From Candidatus Tayloriibacteriota bacterium (GTDB lineage: Bacteria; Patescibacteriota; Minisyncoccia; Phycocordibacterales; PALSA-1337): DNA of 64,000 nt. Positions 1,978 through 59,260 of this stretch are shown here, piece after piece. Under the pieces are notes generated by a model. It made no database searches, was not told the DNA's origin, and worked only from the letters and a program-made list of their open reading frames with translations. Position numbers and translations under genes: made by a program. The first letter of the stretch is position 1. Each line of letters begins with the position of its first letter. The stretch is taken from contig CAIOGI010000001.1 of assembly GCA_903857825.1 (NCBI GenBank), positions 40,698 through 104,697 on the forward strand, given 5' to 3'.

Positions 1978-4176
1978 TTATTCACTCTTCCTATGAAATT
2001 TTTTGTGGATTTTCTTTAATTCTGTATCAGTAACATGTGTATAAATCTGAGTTGTATTGATATTGGCATGGCCAAGAAGCATTTGCACTGAGCGCAGATC
2101 TGCACCATTTCTCAACAGGTCTGTCGCGAAGGAATTATGTGAAATAAAACCATCAGTAATAAAGTTTGAGTATTTATTAATGGTAAAATCAAATACCTCG
2201 GTTTTACCTTTAATATTTTCTATTTTTTTTATCTTTAACCACCGAATATGCGAATTCAGTTTAAGTAAATTCTCAAGTATATCAATCGATCCATCTTTTA
2301 AGCCATTTCCTCGCAAAACAGTTATGATTTTCATTAATAGATTAGCAGACAAACAGATATTTTTATATCTGGTTAGATTTTTTATATTACATTTATTTTG
2401 TATTTCATATACCAATCCCTTATTTTGCAACAATATTGGATATAATTTCCTTAGTATTTGCTGACATGGTATTTTTTCATCCTCAATAATTTCGGGATTT
2501 AATATCGTCTTTTGTTTAAGGGTTTGAATTAAAGACTTAAAGTTTCTCTGGTTTTTAAAGGTGGTTATATGAAGCACATAAATAGTATTGTCAATTATTT
2601 TTCCTTGTGGGAGCTTAACTTTTCTATCTCTTTTTAATAAAATAGAGTCAATATTAAGTATTAAAAATAAAGATTGAACATCTTTTAACAGGTCTTTGCT
2701 TGTTGAAAATACTTTTATAGTTCCATTATTGCCTTCCGCATCATAATATCCAGCAAGAAATGCGCTTATCTCTTCCTTGCTCGCCTTAAACAGACTCTCG
2801 GGAACACGCCTATATTTTGAGTATTGTGTAATACCAAGTTTTCTCAGTTTTCTTAATAACTTAACATCATAAATATATAAAGAATGTGATTTGCTTTCTT
2901 TATTTGGACCAATTATTGGCTTCCTACCAATTATTTTTTCTGCCAAATTTGCATAATATTGAATATGCTTTATGTCCTTATCATTGATAATAATTCCTCG
3001 CCTTCTTTCACTTAAGGTACCATCTCCTAAAATATATCCCGTCAACCTCCAAAAATCCTTGCCCTCACCATCTTTTTTGTTAAAAGAAAAATCTACATGT
3101 TTTATGCCTGCAACATAGTCTCCAACAGATAGATCCTGCATTTGTCTTTCAACAATCCCATTTGTATTTACTGTAAAAAATGTATGATATGGTGTAGCTA
3201 TAATTTCTCTGCCATCTGCCCACATGCTTGATAGATTCTCTGTCGAATGCTTTTTTTTGGCAATAACCTTACCTTTCATTATTTGGCCATTATTAAGGTC
3301 TAGACTCATTACCATGCTTTGCTTGGAATTATTCAATTTATTTGCAGAAAAAATCCCAGAGCTTGTAATAATCCTTGTGTCTGAGTGTAAGCAGTGGCGA
3401 ATAACGTGTGGCGTTACTTTCTTGGAAATACCACTATTTATGGCATACTGCTTGACTATTCTCTCAACTGTTCTTCTATCTAGTCTTAGCGAATCCTTTT
3501 TCTGAGCCATTTTCTCATTCTTCTTGCCTGTAATTTGCACAAAAAGTGCATCGTCCATATCATCTCTTTTATCTAAATATTTTTGTACAGCGTTTCTTGC
3601 ATCATCTGAAATAAATACCACACGAACCTTCTCACCCTTTCCTCTGACAGACATTTCATCTAATTTTAAGTTTATATCTCTAGGGAGGGCACATAACTCC
3701 GACACACGAAGACCTGTTGAAAAAAGTAGCTCTAGCATGGCTTTATCTCTCAAGCCCTTCAAATTGCTTGTGTCTGGGGCGTTAAGCAAACGAACAAGTT
3801 CTTCAATAGTTATCAGATCTAATGATCTTTCTGGTACTTTTGCTAGCTCTATTCTATCTGGAGATAGAGAAGTAATGCTCTGTCTAGCCAGATATTTGAG
3901 AAAGGCACGCAATGCTATCAAATAGTAGTTCTGTGTACGTTTCTTTAGGGTTGTTGGGGCCAGTCCTTTCTCATTTCTAGCCTCTTGTCTGTTAAGCCAA
4001 ATACGGAAATCGCGTACAACATTGTCAGTAATACCTTTTGGATCTTTTATCTTCGTATAATCTAAAAAACGGCTCAGGTAGCGATCATAATTACGCACAG
4101 TATTCAGGCTTCTACCTTTTTCTATTTCAGTATATTGAAGAAATTCGGTTTTTAGTGAAAAAAGATTTTGCGACAT
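1978..4176 (-). CDS. XerC/XerD-family tyrosine recombinase whose catalytic C-terminal domain is interrupted by a roughly 420-aa intein
   Basis: The N-extein has the typical Xer N-terminal region ([13 protein letters not shown]...) and [13 protein letters not shown] (the Arg I region). The sequence ...TPHVIRH is then split from [34 protein letters not shown], which carries the catalytic Tyr. Confidence 0.85.
2134..3393 (-). mobile_element. Intein (Cys1 ... His-Asn, with a +1 Ser) carrying a LAGLIDADG homing endonuclease, inserted directly after the catalytic RH of the recombinase
   Basis: It starts [13 protein letters not shown] and has block B TPYHT. Two LAGLIDADG-type motifs are present ([12 protein letters not shown] and [11 protein letters not shown]). 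It ends FISHN followed by S. Extein coordinates were worked out from residue counts. Confidence 0.8.
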
Positions 4177-4216
4177 GATTTAAGTATACAATGCCAATCT
4201 TTTTCACACCCCCTTG

Positions 4217-4246
4217 ACAAAAAACTAGGGTATGCTATGATATCAC
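4217..4246 (+). promoter_or_regulatory. Near-consensus sigma70-type promoter (TTGACA-N17-TATGAT) pointing towards rpsO
   Basis: Sequence ccTTGACAaaaaactagggtatgcTATGATat. Confidence 0.5.
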
Positions 4247-4460
4247 CAACGTGTCTGAGCTTACTGCTATTGTTTATACCTATTGGCAAGGTAGGCAATG
4301 GCAATCGAACACCGCACAAACAATGGCCCCACGTGCTAAATGCGAGAGCACAGGCCACAACAATGAAAGGGAATCGCCATGATCAGAGGCCCGCCCCAAC
4401 TAGTTCGCCCCGTATCCCAATTTCGCACAGCTATGTGGAAAGAAGAGGATGCGGGGCATT
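4247..4460 (+). ncRNA. Candidate structured non-coding RNA or a long structured rpsO leader. The segment is GC-rich and sits downstream of the consensus promoter. Its class is unassigned.
   Basis: About 210 nt, visibly GC-rich in an AT-rich genome. It has no RBS or plausible ORF. A complementary pair cgccccgtatcc / ggatgcggggc is present. A second promoter-like TTGCAA-N17-TAGTAT lies just upstream of rpsO. Confidence 0.3.
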
Positions 4461-4502
4461 TAATTTGCAAATTTTATACATTCATGCTAGTATATCCCAA
4501 TC

Positions 4503-4772
4503 ATGTTAACAACAAGACAGAAGACAAATATCATAAAAAACGTAGCAATACACGATAAAGATACTGGCTCTCCAGAGGTTCAAATTTCAATATTAACAAA
4601 GAGAATCGAAGAATTAGCTGGTCACTTGAAAAAGCATAAGAAAGACAATCACTCAAGACGAGGACTTCTAGCCATGGTAGCCGATAGACAGACTCACATG
4701 AACTATTTAAAGAAGAAGAGCACTAAGCGTTATAACAGTATCGCGAAGAAACTAGATATAAAGGCAAAGTAA
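4503..4772 (+). CDS. rpsO: 30S ribosomal protein S15
   Basis: GSPEVQISILTKRIEELAGHLKKHKKDNHSRRGLLAMV matches the S15 signature. Confidence 0.95.
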   Translation: MLTTRQKTNIIKNVAIHDKDTGSPEVQISILTKRIEELAGHLKKHKKDNHSRRGLLAMVADRQTHMNYLKKKSTKRYNSIAKKLDIKAK

Positions 4773-4865
4773 AATTGGACTCGCTTGCTTGCGCTCGGAA
4801 GCTCCTCTTTTTTTCACAAGTTCAAAAAAGTAGGACTTCCTCACCGCGTCGAGTCTCAATTTTAC
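4769..4865. repeat. Palindromic intergenic repeat element, copy A. Its termini are gtaaaattggactcg ... cgagtctcaattttac, and it overlaps the rpsO stop.
   Basis: The same element recurs at 36090-36188, with variants at 44676-44702 and 45180-45317. Confidence 0.65.
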
Positions 4866-4977
4866 ATACCCTAATCATTATATGAGTCCAATTTTGTTAT
4901 TAATGGTATACTTAGTTCAGTAAGTATTTTAATAATAGTAGGTTAAATTTTAATAATAAATAAGTAAATAATTTTAT

Positions 4978-5736: not shown

Positions 5737-6561
5737 ATGAATGAAATAAAGGATATTGCATTGTTTGAGGGAAAGGAGGTGAGAAAAGTTTGGCATAATG
5801 AAAAATGGTACTTTTGTGTTAATGACATTGTGCTTGTTCTTACAGAAACCGTTGATCCAGTTGATTATATAAAGAAAATTAGACAACGAGATGAAGAACT
5901 TGGCAAAGGGTGGGGACAAATTGTCACCCCCCTTTCAATGCAGACAAGAGGAGGAAAACAGATGATCAATTGTGCAAACTTAGAAGGTATATTCAGAATA
6001 ATTCAATCTATTCCGTCACCTAAGGCAGAACCTATTAGGTTATGGCTCGCTCGTGTAGGCACCGAAAGACTTGAAGAAATTCAAGACCCTGAACTCGCTA
6101 TGGATCGGGCAAAAGCTATTTATGAAAGAAAAGGATATCCGAAGGACTGGATAGACAAGAGAATGAGGGGAATAAATGTTCGTCATAGCCTAACAGACGA
6201 ATGGAAGAACAGAGGAGTAAAGAAGGGTATTGAATTTGCTATTCTTACTGACGAAATATATAAAGGCACTTTTGACATGACTGCACAGGAGTATAAAAAG
6301 CATAAGTCATTAAATAAGGAGAATAATCTCCGTGATCATATGAATGACATCGAACTCATATTGACTATGCTTGGAGAGGCTACAACAACGAAGTTAACGC
6401 AAGATAGAGATTCACGTGAATTTGATAAGTTACAAAAAGATGCGGAAGAAGGTGGGGAAGTGGCAGGAAAAACTAGGAAGGACATTGAAAGTAGGACGAA
6501 GAAGACGGTAATAGCTAAAGAAAATTATTTGCCGAGAACAAGAAAAAATCTAAACTCATAG
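5737..6561 (+). CDS. DinD-family (DNA-damage-inducible protein D) / Bro-N domain protein
   Basis: It has a Bro-N-like N-terminus (KVWHNEKWYFCVNDIV...). The central FAILTDEIYKGTFDMTAQEYKKHKSL...DHMNDIELIL aligns with E. coli DinD FAIFQNRGYQGLYGG...DHMGSTELAANL. Confidence 0.6.
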   Translation: MNEIKDIALFEGKEVRKVWHNEKWYFCVNDIVLVLTETVDPVDYIKKIRQRDEELGKGWGQIVTPLSMQTRGGKQMINCANLEGIFRIIQSIPSPKAEPIRLWLARVGTERLEEIQDPELAMDRAKAIYERKGYPKDWIDKRMRGINVRHSLTDEWKNRGVKKGIEFAILTDEIYKGTFDMTAQEYKKHKSLNKENNLRDHMNDIELILTMLGEATTTKLTQDRDSREFDKLQKDAEEGGEVAGKTRKDIESRTKKTVIAKENYLPRTRKNLNS

Positions 6562-6778
6562 TTGATAGTTTACTGCCAACTATCAACCATAACATACAAA
6601 ATATACGACTAGAATATAAACTAGACTAATAATTAGACCAATAACTAGACTAATAATAGACTAATCTATAGTTATTAAATGGCTATATTTATAACTATAT
6701 ATGGATTTAGCTCAAAGTTATACCTTAAAAGCTAGTAGAAAAATTGATAGAAAAGTTAACCCATGATATACTCATATT

Positions 6779-8002
6779 GTGAACAATGAAACTATAGCAA
6801 AAAACAACTCAAATCCATTCAAAAAAGGCTTTCTATCTCATTTCAGCCTTGATTTTGACTTGTTTAAAATACAGGATTCAGATATACAGAGATTAGATAA
6901 TAAACTAAATTCCTTCGAAAAGATATTTCTGGACCCAAATATAGAAAAGACCCTAATAAGCAAGAATGAGTTACTTGCCTCTTTTGCAATATCAAAAGCA
7001 GAAAATTCTCAGCTCACATTAGAAGAAGCGGAAGATATCTATAAATTTGTTATAGAAAATAAAGATTTTGATTTTATAAGTAAAAAAATATCAAGTGGTA
7101 AAAAACTAGAAAAAAAAGACTATGAAAAGTTAGAATTCTTTAATATTGCTAGCACCTTTAGAGCTTTAAATGCAAATCCTTTTATGATTCAAGAACTGGA
7201 TGATAAATTGATTAGGAAAATCCATTTTGATATAACAAAAGGGCTAGATATTTTTGCTAAATATCTACCAGAATTTACTCTATATAAATCAGGAAACTGG
7301 CGTGATAATAATGAAATTCGTGTTGGAAAATATACTCCATCAGATTTCAAAGATATTCCAAATTCTATTTCTGATCTTATTTCATGGTTTAAAGATAATC
7401 AGTCCATAACAAATGTAGCTATATTTCATACTGCTCTATATGCAATACACCCTTTCAACAATGGGAATAAAAGAGTTTGTAGAATAATTGAGCATATTTT
7501 ATTAAAAATAATAGGGCTTAATAAGAATAATCTTTATAGTAATTCGTATTTTTATCATAAAGAAAAAACTAGATATTACAAGTATCTTTTAAGTTCACTA
7601 GAGAGAAGGAATCTTAATATTTTCTCATCTTTTATACTAGAGTCTATCGTCTTCTCTATTTTGGGAGTGATCAAAACTAGTCTAGAAATAAAAAGGCAAC
7701 AATACATTGCCCAGTCTGAACTTGATAAGGCAGTACAAAAAGCAATTAAAGGGCTTATTAAAAGAAGGGAATTGCAATTTAAAAACTTCTATAAAATAGT
7801 TAAAAACCAAATTTCCAAGCAAACATTCGTAAATTATCTAGAAAAAGCAGTAAGTGCTGGAATTCTTATTAAAAGAGATGCAGGCAAAGCAACATATTAT
7901 AGGTTAAATATAGAAACGGATGAGGAAAAGTTATTAGCGGAGTTACTTGAGGATATAAAAGGGAAGGTTGGGGTTATAGATGAGGATTTGAGGTTGGTGT
8001 AG
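6779..8002 (+). CDS. Fic/Doc-family protein with a non-canonical Fic motif (HPFNNGNKRVCR) and a C-terminal winged-helix-like region. The track start is a GTG.
   Basis: The HPFxxGNxR core is present. It deviates from canonical HPFx(D/E)GNGRxxR by having N at the D/E position and K in place of the second G. Confidence 0.65.
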   Translation: MNNETIAKNNSNPFKKGFLSHFSLDFDLFKIQDSDIQRLDNKLNSFEKIFLDPNIEKTLISKNELLASFAISKAENSQLTLEEAEDIYKFVIENKDFDFISKKISSGKKLEKKDYEKLEFFNIASTFRALNANPFMIQELDDKLIRKIHFDITKGLDIFAKYLPEFTLYKSGNWRDNNEIRVGKYTPSDFKDIPNSISDLISWFKDNQSITNVAIFHTALYAIHPFNNGNKRVCRIIEHILLKIIGLNKNNLYSNSYFYHKEKTRYYKYLLSSLERRNLNIFSSFILESIVFSILGVIKTSLEIKRQQYIAQSELDKAVQKAIKGLIKRRELQFKNFYKIVKNQISKQTFVNYLEKAVSAGILIKRDAGKATYYRLNIETDEEKLLAELLEDIKGKVGVIDEDLRLV

Positions 8003-50933: not shown

Positions 50934-50997
50934 GTTTTTAATTTAAAAAAGTTAAATATTGTATTTATTATAGCGTATAAGGTAAATTTGACTGCTA

Positions 50998-51025
50998 TTG
51001 ACTTTACCGCTGACTGTGATATAAT
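50998..51025 (+). promoter_or_regulatory. Consensus promoter 1 (TTGACT-N16-TGaTATAAT, an extended -10), followed by leader hairpin agccagaa-ttgt-tctggct at 51036-51054
   Basis: It is near-identical to the promoter and leader at 51511-51570. Confidence 0.6.
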
Positions 51026-51072
51026 ACTACCGTAAAGCCAGAATTGTTCTGGCTCGGTTACGGAATGATCAT

Positions 51073-51399
51073 ATGAAAAAGAAAGTGTTTCTTCTGGTGG
51101 CGTGTGCCACCTTAGCCTACGCCCCAGCTCATGCTGGGGGGACACCGCCAAAGCAGGCGACCCTCCCAGTGGTCGCTACAGCGACGAACCCACCTCACAC
51201 TTTAGTGTTGGGAAGAGTGGTGGGATCTACGGAGATCCGACTGTTTGTCCCCATTCACACCCACCGGTGGACAAACAACCCAACCCCAACGCCGACGACC
51301 AACCAGTGGTCATCGGCGGGGTCTAAGACTCCAGCCACAAACGGTGTGGCTAAACAAAACTCTGGGGCAATCGCCCCCGGAAAGGTGGACGGCAAATAG
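51073..51399 (+). CDS. High-GC small secreted protein or lipoprotein, Thr/Pro/Asn-rich, 108 aa
   Basis: The signal peptide is MKKKVFLLVACATLAYAPAHA, with a possible LVAC lipobox. Its GC is much higher than the flanking DNA. It has a promoter, an RBS-like ggaa and a terminator. Confidence 0.5.
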   Translation: MKKKVFLLVACATLAYAPAHAGGTPPKQATLPVVATATNPPHTLVLGRVVGSTEIRLFVPIHTHRWTNNPTPTPTTNQWSSAGSKTPATNGVAKQNSGAIAPGKVDGK

Positions 51400-51417
51400 C
51401 TAAGACCACCCCACCAA

Positions 51418-51458
51418 GCGGCTCGAATCTCACAGGAGAGGCGAGCCGTTATTTTTTA
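51418..51458 (+). terminator. Rho-independent terminator (gcggctcg...cgagccg followed by TTATTTTTT)
   Basis: A GC stem followed by a T-run. Confidence 0.6.
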
Positions 51459-51510
51459 TATTTTCGATTAGGTAGTAATTGATTAGCAGGTTTAATATCT
51501 TTTAATACTA

Positions 51511-51538
51511 TTGACTTTGTGTCTAGATGTGATATAAT
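51511..51538 (+). promoter_or_regulatory. Consensus promoter 2 (TTGACT-N16-TGaTATAAT), followed by leader hairpin gctggaa-tatgttgt-tccagc at 51550-51570
   Basis: A paralogue of promoter/leader 1. Confidence 0.6.
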
Positions 51539-51592
51539 ACTAGTGTGAAGCTGGAATATGTTGTTCCAGCCAGATGACGGAAAGTTCTTCCT

Positions 51593-52003
51593 ATGAAAAA
51601 CATTCTTCTGTTGGCGACAGTGTTGGCTCTGATGGCGTTCACCTGCACTGGGTGTGCGGGTATCTTTTCAAAGTCTACGAAGCCGTTGTCCCGCCAGGTC
51701 ACCGAGCCAATGTCTGGCTCGAAGATGCCGGTGGAAAAGTTCCACTCGGTGTCAGTGAGTGGGCCTGGTTTCGGGTACTCCAAAGTCGAAGAGACTAGGG
51801 GGTATCCGGTCCAGGTCGTCAGTCGTGACCATAACGGCGCCCTTGTGTACACCAACGAGGTGTACATCTACTCCCAGACCAACGTCTGGGGATACCGGTA
51901 CAACACCGACAGGGTGCCCCAGACATACACCGCACCAGTGCCTTACAAGAGCACGGTGTACGGACCCCAGGGTCCGAGAGGAAGGAAAGCCTCCCCGCGC
52001 TGA
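51593..52003 (+). CDS. High-GC small secreted protein, Tyr/Gly/Val/Thr-rich, 136 aa
   Basis: The signal peptide is MKNILLLATVLALMAFTCTGCAG. It is GC-rich with strong GC3 bias. Overlapping ORFs in other frames are the expected high-GC artefacts. Confidence 0.5.
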   Translation: MKNILLLATVLALMAFTCTGCAGIFSKSTKPLSRQVTEPMSGSKMPVEKFHSVSVSGPGFGYSKVEETRGYPVQVVSRDHNGALVYTNEVYIYSQTNVWGYRYNTDRVPQTYTAPVPYKSTVYGPQGPRGRKASPR

Positions 52004-52023
52004 AAAAGCGCAAAACAGTTTCG

Positions 52024-52070
52024 CAGCCGGCTCCTTCTTGTCACACGACGAGATACGAGCCGGTTTTCTA
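52024..52070 (+). terminator. Rho-independent terminator (gccggctc...gagccgg followed by TTTT)
   Basis: A GC stem followed by a T-run. Confidence 0.55.
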
Positions 52071-59187: not shown

Positions 59188-59260
59188 TGCGCCCAGTTGG
59201 AATCGAACCAACGACCCACTCCTTAAAAGGGAGTTGCTCTACCGACTGAGCTATGGGCGC
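59188..59260 (-). tRNA. tRNA-Lys (anticodon UUU)
   Basis: Hand-folded: acceptor GCGCCCA/TGGGCGC, D-arm GCTC-AGTCGGTA-GAGC, anticodon stem ACTCC/GGAGT with loop CTTTTAA, and T-arm GTTGG-TTCGATT-CCAAC. Confidence 0.85.

What the first reader, a model, noticed from the sequence alone, without database searches (positions are those of the whole stretch)
4217..4460. GC-rich non-coding segment behind a consensus promoter between the xer gene and rpsO: a candidate structured RNA or cis-regulatory leader
TTGACA-N17-TATGAT at 4217-4246 is followed by about 210 nt that are conspicuously GC-rich for this genome. The segment has no convincing ORF or RBS; the 113-aa track ORF overlaps both neighbouring genes. 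It has a complementary pair, cgccccgtatcc at 4404-4415 and ggatgcggggc at 4447-4457. rpsO then has its own TTGCAA-N17-TAGTAT promoter. It could be an sRNA, or an extended rpsO autoregulatory leader, since S15 regulates its own mRNA through a pseudoknot. I could not match it to RNase P, SRP or tmRNA consensus by eye.
Basis: partly seen in the sequence, partly recalled or inferred. Interest (0 to 1): 0.5.

Follow-up and report, generated by a model that had tools for sequence, protein, structure and literature searches.

The report
Fast-evolving small RNA gene before rpsO
The GC-rich stretch is most likely a self-contained small RNA gene of about 217 bases, a shortened member of an undescribed, fast-changing RNA family in Paceibacteria that carries a ribosome-loading site and a tiny Pro-Pro reading frame, and it is not a regulatory leader of the S15 gene.

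Summary
A near-consensus promoter (TTGACA 4214-4219, 16-nt spacer, TGcTATGAT 4233-4241) precedes about 217 nt of 50% GC RNA in a 36% GC genome. The RNA ends in a hairpin (4406-4457) plus U-tract that abuts rpsO's own promoter.

Rfam, ARAGORN and Pfam find nothing. rpsO is leaderless in 77 of 79 relatives, and 37 of 70 relatives have no insert, so this is not an S15 leader.

33 of 70 Taylorbacteria/Paceibacteria genomes carry one or two promoter-to-terminator units at this spot. The units are almost unalignable between genomes but share an architecture:
- a 5' helix P1 with covariation;
- a hairpin followed by an accessible GAAAGGAG-like Shine-Dalgarno (SD) sequence;
- AUG-AAN and an in-frame Pro-Pro (20 of 22 modules).

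The rest of each ORF is unconstrained. None of 49 window genes has an SD.

The window copy has every part. Its one close homologue (L123, about 81% identical) keeps all 46 predicted pairs, three by compensatory change, and shows that the window copy lost 83 nt, including the stop codon.

Most likely it is a stable small RNA whose action depends on loading a ribosome and pausing it early. Its target is unknown.

The parts
4214..4219 (+). -35 box TTGACA of the RNA gene's promoter. It lies 38 nt from the divergent xer start codon.
   Evidence: Promoter scan: 11 of 12 matches. In relatives that carry an insert, the same ACTTGACAAAA element sits 26-60 nt from the xer ATG. It is 32/33 identical to L113.
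4233..4241 (+). Extended -10 box, TGcTATGAT. The spacer to the -35 box is 16 nt.
4248..4464 (+). Predicted transcript of about 217 nt, 50% GC. The start is inferred as 7 nt after the -10 box. The end is inferred in the U-tract after the terminator.
   Evidence: GC profile. Fold z = -2.26 on the plus strand only. Homologous to L123 411-713. The ends are inferred; there are no expression data.
4251..4312 (+). 5' domain. Helix P1 (4251-4258 with 4305-4312) encloses hairpin H1 (4265-4274/4294-4303 and 4277-4281/4289-4293).
   Evidence: Minimum-free-energy fold. Kept in L123 with one compensatory and several one-sided changes. Relatives have the equivalent P1, with 92.5% of cells paired and covariation.
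4324..4357 (+). Hairpin H2: outer stem UGGCC/GGCCA, inner stem GUGCU 4333-4337 with AGCAC 4347-4351.
   Evidence: The inner stem has two compensatory pair changes against L123 (U-A to C-G, G-C to A-U). The loop and 3' side are homologous to L113 (33/37, E 1e-7). A hairpin sits just upstream of the SD in most relatives (mean z = -1.6, n = 29).
4358..4372 (+). Single-stranded C/A-rich linker and Shine-Dalgarno-like GAAAGGGA (4365-4372).
   Evidence: Identical in L123 up to GAAAGG. GAAAGGA and AGAAAGG are the commonest 7-mers among the 45 family transcripts. Predicted unpaired probability is 0.64 against 0.47 for the whole transcript.
4379..4396 (+). Start of the mini-ORF: AUG AUC AGA GGC CCG CCC (M I R G P P). 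The frame has no stop before the terminator (ORF 4379-4558).
   Evidence: The composite SD-ATG-ProPro motif is unique in the window and 260 times denser in xer-rpsO spacers than elsewhere. Pro-Pro is in frame in 20 of 22 modules. The L123 homologue reads MNKAPP... and has a stop.
4406..4466 (+). Intrinsic-terminator-like element. An 11-12 bp stem (4406-4417 with 4447-4457) carries an inner hairpin and is followed by AUUUAAUUU.
   Evidence: The stem is kept in L123, with only one-sided changes among its predicted pairs. Every unit in relatives ends in a hairpin plus T-run at this position.
4465..4493 (+). Boundary feature, not part of the RNA: rpsO's own promoter (TTGCAA, 17-nt spacer, TGcTAGTAT). 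Its -10 box ends 9 nt before the rpsO ATG at 4503.
   Evidence: Conserved in 77 of 79 loci, with or without an insert.

Best explanation
Positions 4248 to about 4464 (+) form an independent small RNA gene.

Transcription (inferred from sequence): a strong promoter starts transcription divergently from xer, and an intrinsic terminator ends it just before the separate, leaderless rpsO promoter.

Family (shown by comparison): the RNA is a shortened member of a fast-evolving RNA family, absent from Rfam, found in Taylorbacteria/Paceibacteria. Zero to two tandem units of this family occupy the xer-rpsO spacer. The conserved core, in order, is:
- a 5'-terminal long-range helix (P1);
- a hairpin;
- an exposed A/C-rich linker with a strong Shine-Dalgarno-like sequence;
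- AUG followed by an AAN codon;
- an in-frame Pro-Pro within the first 4-7 codons;
- unconstrained sequence, then a terminator.

Mechanism (inferred): the RNA acts as RNA. A ribosome is loaded at the only SD-led start site of this kind in an otherwise SD-less, largely leaderless genome. It then pauses early at Pro-Pro, which is encoded by CCG/CCC. I expected these codons to be rare in such an AT-rich genome but did not measure codon usage.

The bound or paused ribosome, together with the 5' helix and the 3' hairpin, would stabilise the transcript, gate its activity, or both. This is the logic of known 5' stabilisers and of dual-function sRNAs. It could make the RNA's level report translation status, such as EF-P activity or prolyl-tRNA supply. 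The trans target of the variable GC-rich body is unknown.

The window copy lost 83 nt, including the stop codon, so its frame runs through the terminator.
For: - Promoter, GC contrast and strand-specific folding.
- No known RNA or protein family: Rfam at gathering threshold and at E <= 10, Rfam on relatives, ARAGORN on six relatives' loci, Pfam.
- Locus comparison: 33 of 70 xer-rpsO spacers are 240-1100 nt and 37 are 190 nt or less. Most of the long spacers carry the promoter, each unit ends in a terminator, and units occur in tandem (L009, L029, L031; L123).
- Close homologue L123 unit 2: about 81% identical, 46 pairs with 0 broken, 3 compensatory and 5 one-sided changes.
- P1 in the family: 92.5% of cells paired against 21-51% when the partner is slid; no shuffle of 500 reaches the double-change count.
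- Core module: unique in the window, 260-fold enriched in spacers, recovered weakly by the covariance model at the spacer sites of L019, L029, L047, L113, L048 and L117.
- Reading-frame constraint: Pro-Pro is in frame in 20 of 22 modules, at offsets of 6, 9, 12 or 15 nt.
- The SD-to-AUG stretch is more accessible than the rest of the transcript (p = 4e-4), and a hairpin lies upstream of the SD (mean z = -1.6).
- ORF bodies are not under protein-level selection: mismatches are not enriched at third codon positions.
- 0 of 49 window genes have an SD core, and 14 of 49 look leaderless.
- Precedent for an SD-like 5' stabiliser that binds the 30S subunit: PMC4113751.
Against: - There are no expression or ribosome data, so the transcript ends and translation are inferred.
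- The window copy deviates from the family. Its second codon is AUC rather than AAN, its 5' motif is degenerate, and it has no stop codon. It may be decaying.
- Only one close homologue supports the window-specific helices.
- The family is absent from about half of the relatives and differs between strains that have identical S15 (L082). It is therefore dispensable, and it could be nearly neutral.
- If ribosomes of this lineage ignore SD sequences, the GAAAGGAG motif must do something else.
- In-frame ORFs are somewhat longer than the +2-frame control (median 32.5 against 13.5 codons), so a peptide product is not excluded.
- No target or partner was identified.
Confidence: 0.5

Rival explanations
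1. It is a small-protein gene, one of a set of micropeptide genes. The product that matters is the peptide beginning M-N/K-x-S/G/D-P-P, and the RNA structure is only a 5' UTR.
For: - SD, AUG and in-frame Pro-Pro are conserved.
- Alternative start codons occur (TTG in L048, GTG in L069).
- One such ORF was called as a 29-aa gene by JGI (L113).
- In-frame ORFs are somewhat longer than the +2-frame control.
- The L009b/L011 pair shows fewer second-position changes (8/3/7).
- The window holds other GC-rich small genes with the same promoter and terminator layout (51073-51399 and 51593-52003).
Against: - ORF lengths range from 5 to 59 codons.
- Sequence after codon 6 is not conserved.
- Mismatches are spread evenly over codon positions in four of five alignable pairs.
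- L093 has a premature stop, yet the downstream nucleotides stay conserved.
- Between L008 and L010 the peptide changes while a hairpin is kept by a compensatory insertion.
- The window copy has no stop codon before the terminator.
- No Pfam match and no database homologue.
Confidence: 0.15
2. It is an untranslated decoy or stabiliser. The GAAAGGAG-type sequence binds the 3' tail of 16S rRNA or the 30S subunit (STAB-SD-like), or some other factor, without productive translation. The RNA would then be a sponge, or simply be protected from 5' exonuclease.
For: - AGAAAGGAGG(U), an extended complement of CCUCCUUUCU, recurs within the units, sometimes with no start codon behind it (L023, L036, L068).
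- No gene in the window uses an SD.
- STAB-SD is an established precedent (PMC4113751).
Against: - The in-frame Pro-Pro at variable whole-codon distances (20 of 22) and the nearly invariant start codon are not needed for a pure decoy.
- The window copy has a single, imperfect SD-like site.
- The 16S tail of this lineage was not available to check.
Confidence: 0.12
3. The window copy is a decaying, functionless remnant of such a unit, or the whole family is near-neutral transcribed spacer DNA generated by duplication of the promoter region.
For: - An 83-nt deletion removed the stop codon and the CGCCGGCG block present in L123.
- The second codon and the 5' motif are degenerate.
- Units are gained and lost between strains with identical S15.
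- 37 of 70 genomes lack any unit.
- Unit cores are mostly unalignable with one another.
Against: - All 46 predicted pairs are kept against L123 at about 19% divergence, three of them by double changes.
- Promoter, SD, AUG, Pro-Pro and terminator are intact.
- The module architecture persists across relatives whose S15 is as low as about 70% identical.
Confidence: 0.13
4. It is a cis-acting leader or attenuator of rpsO. That could be an S15-binding autoregulatory leader. It could also be a leader-peptide attenuator, in which a ribosome paused at Pro-Pro (4391-4396) covers the foot of the terminator (from 4406) and lets transcription run into rpsO.
For: - It lies directly upstream of rpsO.
- In the window copy the ORF runs into the terminator, and the Pro-Pro lies 10-15 nt before the stem. 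That is a plausible attenuation geometry.
Against: - rpsO has its own conserved promoter and essentially no 5' UTR in 77 of 79 relatives.
- The insert is absent from 37 of 70 relatives.
- In other members the Pro-Pro lies 100-500 nt from the terminator (L123).
- The family also occurs away from rpsO (L111, next to a gene I took for a DEAD-box-like helicase from its RGG-rich N-terminus only).
- No S15-leader Rfam match.
Confidence: 0.06

Closest known systems
Dual-function small RNAs carrying a small ORF (SgrS/SgrT, RNAIII/hld, SR1/SR1P; from general knowledge)
   Same: A self-contained, structured transcript with its own promoter and terminator, and an internal ribosome-binding site with a short reading frame.
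   Different: - Only the first 4-7 codons are constrained here. The rest of the ORF drifts freely or is truncated.
- No base-pairing target is known.
- Units are hypervariable, occur in tandem, and are gained or lost between close strains.
- The host genome otherwise lacks SD sequences.
5' RNA stabilisers of Gram-positive bacteria: STAB-SD of cry3A (PMC4113751) and ribosomes stalled in the ermC leader (the latter from general knowledge)
   Same: A GAAAGGAG(G)-type SD-like sequence near the 5' end, a 5' helix, and an early ribosome pause would all block 5'-to-3' decay.
   Different: - Those elements sit in the 5' UTR of a protein-coding mRNA. Here no protein gene follows within the transcript.
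- The pause would be intrinsic (Pro-Pro) rather than drug-induced.
- The presence of RNase J in this lineage was not checked.
Leader-peptide attenuators and polyproline/EF-P-dependent stalling (for example the proline-codon leader mgtL; from general knowledge)
   Same: A short SD-led ORF whose critical feature is a pair of proline codons, followed by a terminator hairpin.
   Different: - No regulated ORF lies downstream in the same transcript.
- The distance from stall site to terminator is not conserved.
- rpsO has its own promoter.
S15 (rpsO) autoregulatory mRNA leaders (Rfam S15 families)
   Same: Position upstream of rpsO.
   Different: - A terminator and a separate promoter lie between the RNA and rpsO.
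- rpsO is leaderless.
- No covariance-model match.
- Absent from half of the relatives.
rRNA-operon leader with boxA (consensus GYTCTTTAANA in gamma-proteobacteria, PMC5725501) and boxA in front of long untranslated CRISPR transcripts (PMC7665894)
   Same: - Typical family members start with (G)ATGAYCTTTGA a few nucleotides after a TTGACA/TGnTAnnAT promoter.
- The same promoter plus motif lies about 370 nt upstream of a 16S gene in metagenome contigs L085-L087 and L108.
   Different: - The motif is the 5' arm of helix P1 rather than an obviously single-stranded site.
- The window copy has only a degenerate version (ACGTGTCTGA).
- NusB/NusE binding is untested.

Membership tests
S15 (rpsO) autoregulatory leader | The element is part of the rpsO mRNA 5' UTR, with no terminator or promoter in between. 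| tested here: not met
   A terminator hairpin (4406-4457) and the rpsO promoter (4465-4493) separate them. The -10 box ends 6-10 nt before the ATG in 77 of 79 loci, so rpsO is leaderless.
S15 (rpsO) autoregulatory leader | Match to a curated S15-leader covariance model. | tested here: not met
   Rfam 15 on 4100-4900 at E <= 10 gave no match of any kind.
S15 (rpsO) autoregulatory leader | Conserved together with rpsO in related genomes. | tested here: not met
   37 of 70 xer-rpsO spacers are 190 nt or less and hold only the two promoters.
Housekeeping RNAs (6S, SRP, RNase P, tmRNA) and any other Rfam family | Covariance-model or ARAGORN match. | tested here: not met
   The whole window at gathering threshold gave only a tRNA at 59188-59260. 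Nothing at E <= 10 on the region. Nothing on the inserts of nine relatives. ARAGORN found nothing in six relatives' loci.
New xer-rpsO spacer RNA family (defined here) | TTGACA / extended -10 promoter 26-60 nt from the divergent xer start codon. | tested here: met
   Window -35 box at 4214, 38 nt from xer ATG 4176. Same in relatives. 32/33 identical to L113.
New xer-rpsO spacer RNA family (defined here) | 5'-terminal long-range helix P1 that uses the conserved 5' motif. | tested here: met
   Family: 8 pairs, 92.5% of cells paired, covariation. Window: 4251-4258 with 4305-4312, kept in L123. The window's 5' motif sequence is degenerate.
New xer-rpsO spacer RNA family (defined here) | Hairpin, exposed SD-like sequence, AUG, in-frame Pro-Pro. 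| tested here: met
   One match in 64 kb, at 4365-4396, where 0.175 are expected. 260-fold enriched in spacers. In frame in 20 of 22 modules. The covariance model from the window plus L123 hits the module sites of six other spacers at E 0.09-5, which is weak.
New xer-rpsO spacer RNA family (defined here) | Direct sequence homology to another member. | tested here: met
   L123 unit 2 is about 81% identical over the whole RNA. The L113 block matches 33/37, E 1e-7. blastn against 80 species-level genomes found no homologue of the GC-rich part.
Leader-peptide transcription attenuator | A regulated gene lies downstream in the same transcript and depends on read-through. | tested here: not met
   rpsO has its own conserved promoter. 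Units occur without rpsO nearby (L111).
Leader-peptide transcription attenuator | The stall site is positioned to compete with terminator formation. | tested here: inconclusive
   The geometry fits in the window copy (Pro-Pro 4391-4396, stem from 4406). It does not fit in L123 or in most members, where the distance is 100-500 nt.
Type I toxin-antitoxin locus | A short hydrophobic toxin peptide and an overlapping antisense RNA. | tested here: not met
   The peptides are polar, rich in Gly/Thr/Pro and unconserved. Only weak minus-strand promoter-like sites were found. The minus strand does not fold better than chance.
boxA / Nus-factor antitermination leader | A boxA sequence bound by NusB/NusE shortly after the transcription start. 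| not testable with these tools
   This is resemblance only. The family motif GAYCTTTGA is similar to GYTCTTTAANA (PMC5725501), and the same motif lies upstream of a 16S gene. The window copy is degenerate.
Dual-function sRNA | Acts by base-pairing with a trans target. | not tested
   No target search was possible. Only a 64-kb window of the genome is available.

The most novel reading that the evidence does not exclude
In a CPR lineage whose genes have dispensed with Shine-Dalgarno sequences and are largely leaderless, these hypervariable RNAs are dedicated ribosome traps. Each would be an abundant transcript with rRNA-style signals that captures a 30S/70S particle through a near-perfect anti-SD complement. 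It would then park the ribosome on an N-terminal Pro-Pro, either to sense EF-P or prolyl-tRNA status or to titrate free small subunits. The variable body would diversify rapidly by recombination between repeated promoters.
Probability: 0.18. Interest if true: 0.8.

Novelty: new variant of a known kind. Interest (0 to 1): 0.6.

Why it matters
Almost nothing is known about regulatory RNAs in Patescibacteria (CPR), which are uncultured, reduced-genome episymbionts.

This locus gives a concrete and widespread RNA family. It occupies 33 of 70 sampled species-level genomes at one syntenic site, and it also occurs elsewhere. Its conserved parts are clearly defined and its evolutionary turnover is very fast.

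The family pairs a strong SD-led, Pro-Pro mini-ORF with a genome in which none of 49 neighbouring genes has an SD. That raises a testable question: what is the anti-SD tail of 16S rRNA used for in such organisms, and is ribosome loading on an sRNA used as a stabilising or sensing device?

For annotation, the result shows two things:
- The 113-aa and 59-aa ORFs here, and database 'proteins' such as P0123, are artefacts.
- rpsO in this clade is leaderless and cannot carry the classical S15 feedback leader.

Tried and rejected
- **Known families.** Rfam at gathering threshold and at E <= 10 on the region, and on nine relatives, found nothing on the inserts. ARAGORN on six relatives' loci found no tmRNA. 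Pfam on six overlapping ORFs found nothing.
- **Sequence search in relatives.** blastn of the region against 80 related species found no match to the GC-rich part. The true homologue turned up only indirectly, through a spurious protein hit.
- **Profile from an unsupervised alignment.** An nhmmer profile built from a plain MAFFT alignment of 28 modules failed to find the window copy. I replaced it with an explicit composite motif plus chance controls and with a covariance model.
- **Protein-coding reading.** The codon-position test and ORF-length controls argue against constraint on the ORF bodies.
- **Integron-like cassette array, or IMEX/dif insertion next to the tyrosine recombinase.** Rejected. 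Each unit has its own promoter and a canonical terminator, I saw no attC-like or dif-like repeats, short spacers hold only the two promoters, and repeated promoter segments explain gain and loss.
- **Phage origin.** No hits in viral contigs for the family pattern or for the window-type linker.
- **CsrB-like GGA sponge.** By my own count the window RNA has only about three GGA motifs, roughly the chance number.
- **Riboswitch aptamer closed by P1.** The interior of P1 is not conserved.
- **boxA identity of the 5' motif.** Kept only as a resemblance.
- **Literature.** Searches for CPR sRNAs or SD usage gave nothing specific.
Full report
**What is in the sequence**

The window comes from an AT-rich bacterium (35.7% GC) of the Candidatus Taylorbacteria / Paceibacteria group (Patescibacteria). 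The closest S15 genes all carry such titles.

Between the start of a minus-strand tyrosine-recombinase gene and rpsO lie 326 nt. The recombinase gene (xer, 1978-4176) contains an intein here. rpsO starts at ATG 4503.

About 217 nt of 49.8% GC follow, which is in the top 1.6% of equal-sized windows. The segment ends in an 11-12 bp stem (4406-4417 with 4447-4457) followed by AUUUAAUUU. This runs straight into the rpsO -35 box (TTGCAA 4465-4470; -10 box TGcTAGTAT 4485-4493).

The plus strand folds better than shuffled sequence (z = -2.26). The minus strand does not (z = -0.30).

**Not a known RNA or protein**

- Rfam 15 finds only a tRNA in the whole window, and nothing in 4100-4900 even at E <= 10.
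- The six ORFs that overlap the segment have no Pfam family.
- An exhaustive phmmer search with the 113-aa ORF gave a single weak hit, P0123. The word-index search with the 59-aa ORF hit only sequences that overlap rpsO.
- P0123 is a spurious ORF called over homologous non-coding DNA. Relative to the window it needs a frame change, which is what indels in non-coding sequence produce.

**Not an rpsO leader**

In 77 of 79 related loci, rpsO is preceded by TTGnnn, a 17-nt spacer and TGnTAnnnN, with the -10 box ending 6-10 nt (mode 9) before the ATG. rpsO mRNA therefore has almost no 5' UTR in this clade, whether or not there is an insert upstream.

The xer-rpsO synteny holds in 70 of the 80 loci. 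In 37 of those 70 the spacer is 190 nt or less and contains only the two divergent promoters. In the other 33 it is 240-1100 nt.

**A recurrent, fast-evolving unit**

Most long spacers begin with the same promoter (ACTTGACAAAA...TATGCTAnnAT) 26-60 nt from the xer ATG. GC-rich sequence follows, and each unit ends in a hairpin plus T-run just before the rpsO promoter. Some spacers hold two such units in tandem (L009, L029, L031, L123).

The unit bodies are almost unalignable. All-against-all blastn recovers only a handful of pairs. A strain with an identical S15 protein (L082) has a completely different unit and an intein-less xer.

A direct repeat of about 25 nt around each promoter in L123 (TTTTTCATACCCC-TTGACAAAA) offers a simple route for gaining and losing units by recombination. 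This is an inference.

The family is not tied to this locus. A metagenome pattern scan also found typical units next to a gene that I took to be a DEAD-box-like helicase, judging only from its RGG-rich N-terminus (L105, L106, L111). No copy was found in viral contigs.

**What is conserved**

1. *A 5' motif, (G)ATGAYCTTTGA, a few nucleotides after the start.* It forms the 5' arm of a long-range helix, P1.
   - RNAalifold on an unsupervised alignment of ten members predicts exactly this helix.
   - 92.5% of cells pair, against 21-51% when the partner is slid.
   - Two columns switch between G-C and A-U, and no shuffle of 500 reaches the observed number of double changes.
   - The motif resembles boxA (GYTCTTTAANA, PMC5725501).
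   - The same promoter plus motif lies upstream of a 16S gene in other contigs.
   - I keep the boxA reading only as a resemblance.
2. *A small hairpin upstream of the SD-like sequence* (mean z = -1.6 over 29 instances).
3. *An A/C-rich single-stranded linker and GAAAGGA(G).* GAAAGGA and AGAAAGG are the commonest 7-mers among 45 transcripts. The linker is predicted to be more accessible than the rest of the RNA (p = 4e-4).
4. *AUG, usually followed by AAN, then after 0-3 further codons a small residue and CCG-YCN (Pro-Pro, sometimes Pro-Ser).*

**Translated or not**

Two tests point in different directions, and together they are informative.

- The CC[GT]CC motif lies in the AUG frame in 20 of 22 modules, at offsets of 6, 9, 12 or 15 nt. 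Control ATGs give 9/3/7 across the three frames. Indels between the AUG and Pro-Pro therefore come in whole codons, which is a reading-frame constraint that an untranslated motif would not have.
- Beyond about codon 6 there is no protein-level constraint.
  - Substitutions between alignable pairs are spread evenly over codon positions (8/3/7, 9/8/5, 7/9/9, 10/10/10, 3/0/2).
  - ORFs range from 5 to 59 codons.
  - A premature stop in L093 leaves the downstream nucleotides conserved.
  - Between L008 and L010 the peptide changes while a hairpin is preserved.

The simplest reading is that a ribosome is loaded and decodes the first few codons, including Pro-Pro. What it makes afterwards does not matter.

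**Genome context that makes this unusual**

None of 49 genes in the window has even a 4-mer SD core at -20 to -4, where random positions give 15%. Fourteen of the 49 have an extended -10 box ending 4-11 nt before the start codon, so they appear leaderless.

The composite motif is an SD-like 6-mer, 2-12 nt, ATG, 1-4 codons, then CCN CCN.
- It occurs once in the 64 kb, at 4365-4396, where 0.175 matches are expected.
- In 80 related loci it is about 260 times denser in the xer-rpsO spacers than elsewhere.

**The window copy**

It has every part of the family architecture:
- P1: 4251-4258 with 4305-4312.
- H1: 4265-4303.
- H2: 4324-4357.
- Linker and GAAAGGGA: 4358-4372.
- AUG at 4379 and Pro-Pro at 4391-4396.
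- Terminator: 4406-4457.

Its one close homologue, unit 2 of L123, is about 81% identical.
- It keeps all 46 predicted pairs: 3 by compensatory double changes (two of them in the H2 inner stem) and 5 by one-sided changes.
- It has canonical family features that the window copy lacks:
  - ATG AAC AAA GCC CCG CCC (MNKAPP);
  - a 29-codon frame with a stop;
  - a CGCCGGCG block.
  These lie partly in an extra 83 nt.

The window copy is therefore a deletion derivative whose frame now runs through the terminator.

A block of H2 plus the linker is also shared with a distal module of the 821-nt spacer of L113 (33/37, E 1e-7), so the units are mosaics.

A covariance model built from the window and L123 recovers, weakly (E 0.09-5), the module sites in six other spacers.

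**Mechanism**

Shown:
- the anatomy;
- structure conservation against L123;
- family membership;
- the reading-frame constraint on the start of the ORF;
- the lack of constraint on the rest of the ORF;
- independence from rpsO.

Inferred:
- The transcript ends.
- That the SD-like sequence recruits a ribosome which pauses at Pro-Pro. The codons are CCG/CCC, which I expected to be rare at this GC content but did not measure.
- That the loaded ribosome stabilises the RNA or gates its activity, together with the 5' helix and the 3' hairpin. This is how STAB-SD works (PMC4113751), and stalled-ribosome stabilisers work the same way (from general knowledge).

The target of the variable body is unknown. 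I give this reading about 0.5. Rivals:
- peptide product, 0.15;
- untranslated decoy or stabiliser, 0.12;
- decaying remnant, 0.13;
- rpsO attenuator or leader, 0.06.

**Verdict**

This is a real feature, not a known family, and not an S15 leader. It is a new kind of small RNA gene with a tiny translated start, in a lineage where such RNAs are essentially unstudied.

Noticed in passing
window 1978-4176 (-): The xer-type tyrosine recombinase is 732 aa here because it carries an intein with a LAGLIDADG homing endonuclease (Pfam Intein_splicing, LAGLIDADG_3). Close relatives with an identical or near-identical S15 have an intein-less gene of 311-313 aa (L082, L113, L116).
   Followed up: partly
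window, all 49 ORFs of 100 aa or more: No gene has a Shine-Dalgarno core at -20 to -4 (0 of 49, against 15% at random positions). 14 of 49 have an extended -10 box (TGnTAnnnT) ending 4-11 nt before the start codon. This lineage appears to translate mostly leaderless or SD-less mRNAs. xer and rpsO both look leaderless.
   Followed up: partly
window 50980-52060 (+): This is the most GC-rich stretch of the window (up to 0.61). It holds two small genes, 51073-51399 (108 aa) and 51593-52003 (136 aa), with signal-peptide or lipoprotein-like N-termini. Each has its own TTGACT...TGATATAAT promoter, a 5'-UTR hairpin and a terminator. Several ORFs on both strands overlap them. Rfam finds nothing there.
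   Followed up: partly
window 5737-8002 (+): A Bro-N domain gene and a Fic gene follow the NYN gene downstream of rpsO. In relatives (L120, L121) the NYN gene is followed directly by polynucleotide phosphorylase. This suggests an insertion of mobile-element-type genes in this strain.
   Followed up: no
L123 128-365 and L082/L116 spacers: A second unit type at the same locus carries a strong SD followed by a three-codon ORF, ATG CTA CTT TAA (MLL*). The ORF is conserved between L082 and L123 even though the SD spelling differs. Other units hold five-codon ORFs, MKPFT*/MKPFL*, with synonymous variants (L007, L014, L097, L098) and MKDPP* (L117).
   Followed up: partly
L059 6723-6778 (-): Hammerhead_3 ribozyme match at 43.3 bits, just below the gathering score of 48.5 (E 3.6e-6), in a Paceibacteria-like contig.
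   Followed up: no
L039 2358-2486 and 5000-5163: Long, near-perfect inverted repeats. Rfam scores them as plant miRNA precursors, which is clearly spurious. Their nature is unknown.
   Followed up: no
L085/L086/L087/L108, about 370 nt upstream of a 16S rRNA gene: The same promoter type and the GATGATCTTT motif precede a 16S gene in an AT-rich bacterium. Its 16S ends in GGATCACCTCCTTT. This supports a boxA-like or leader-helix role for the motif.
   Followed up: partly
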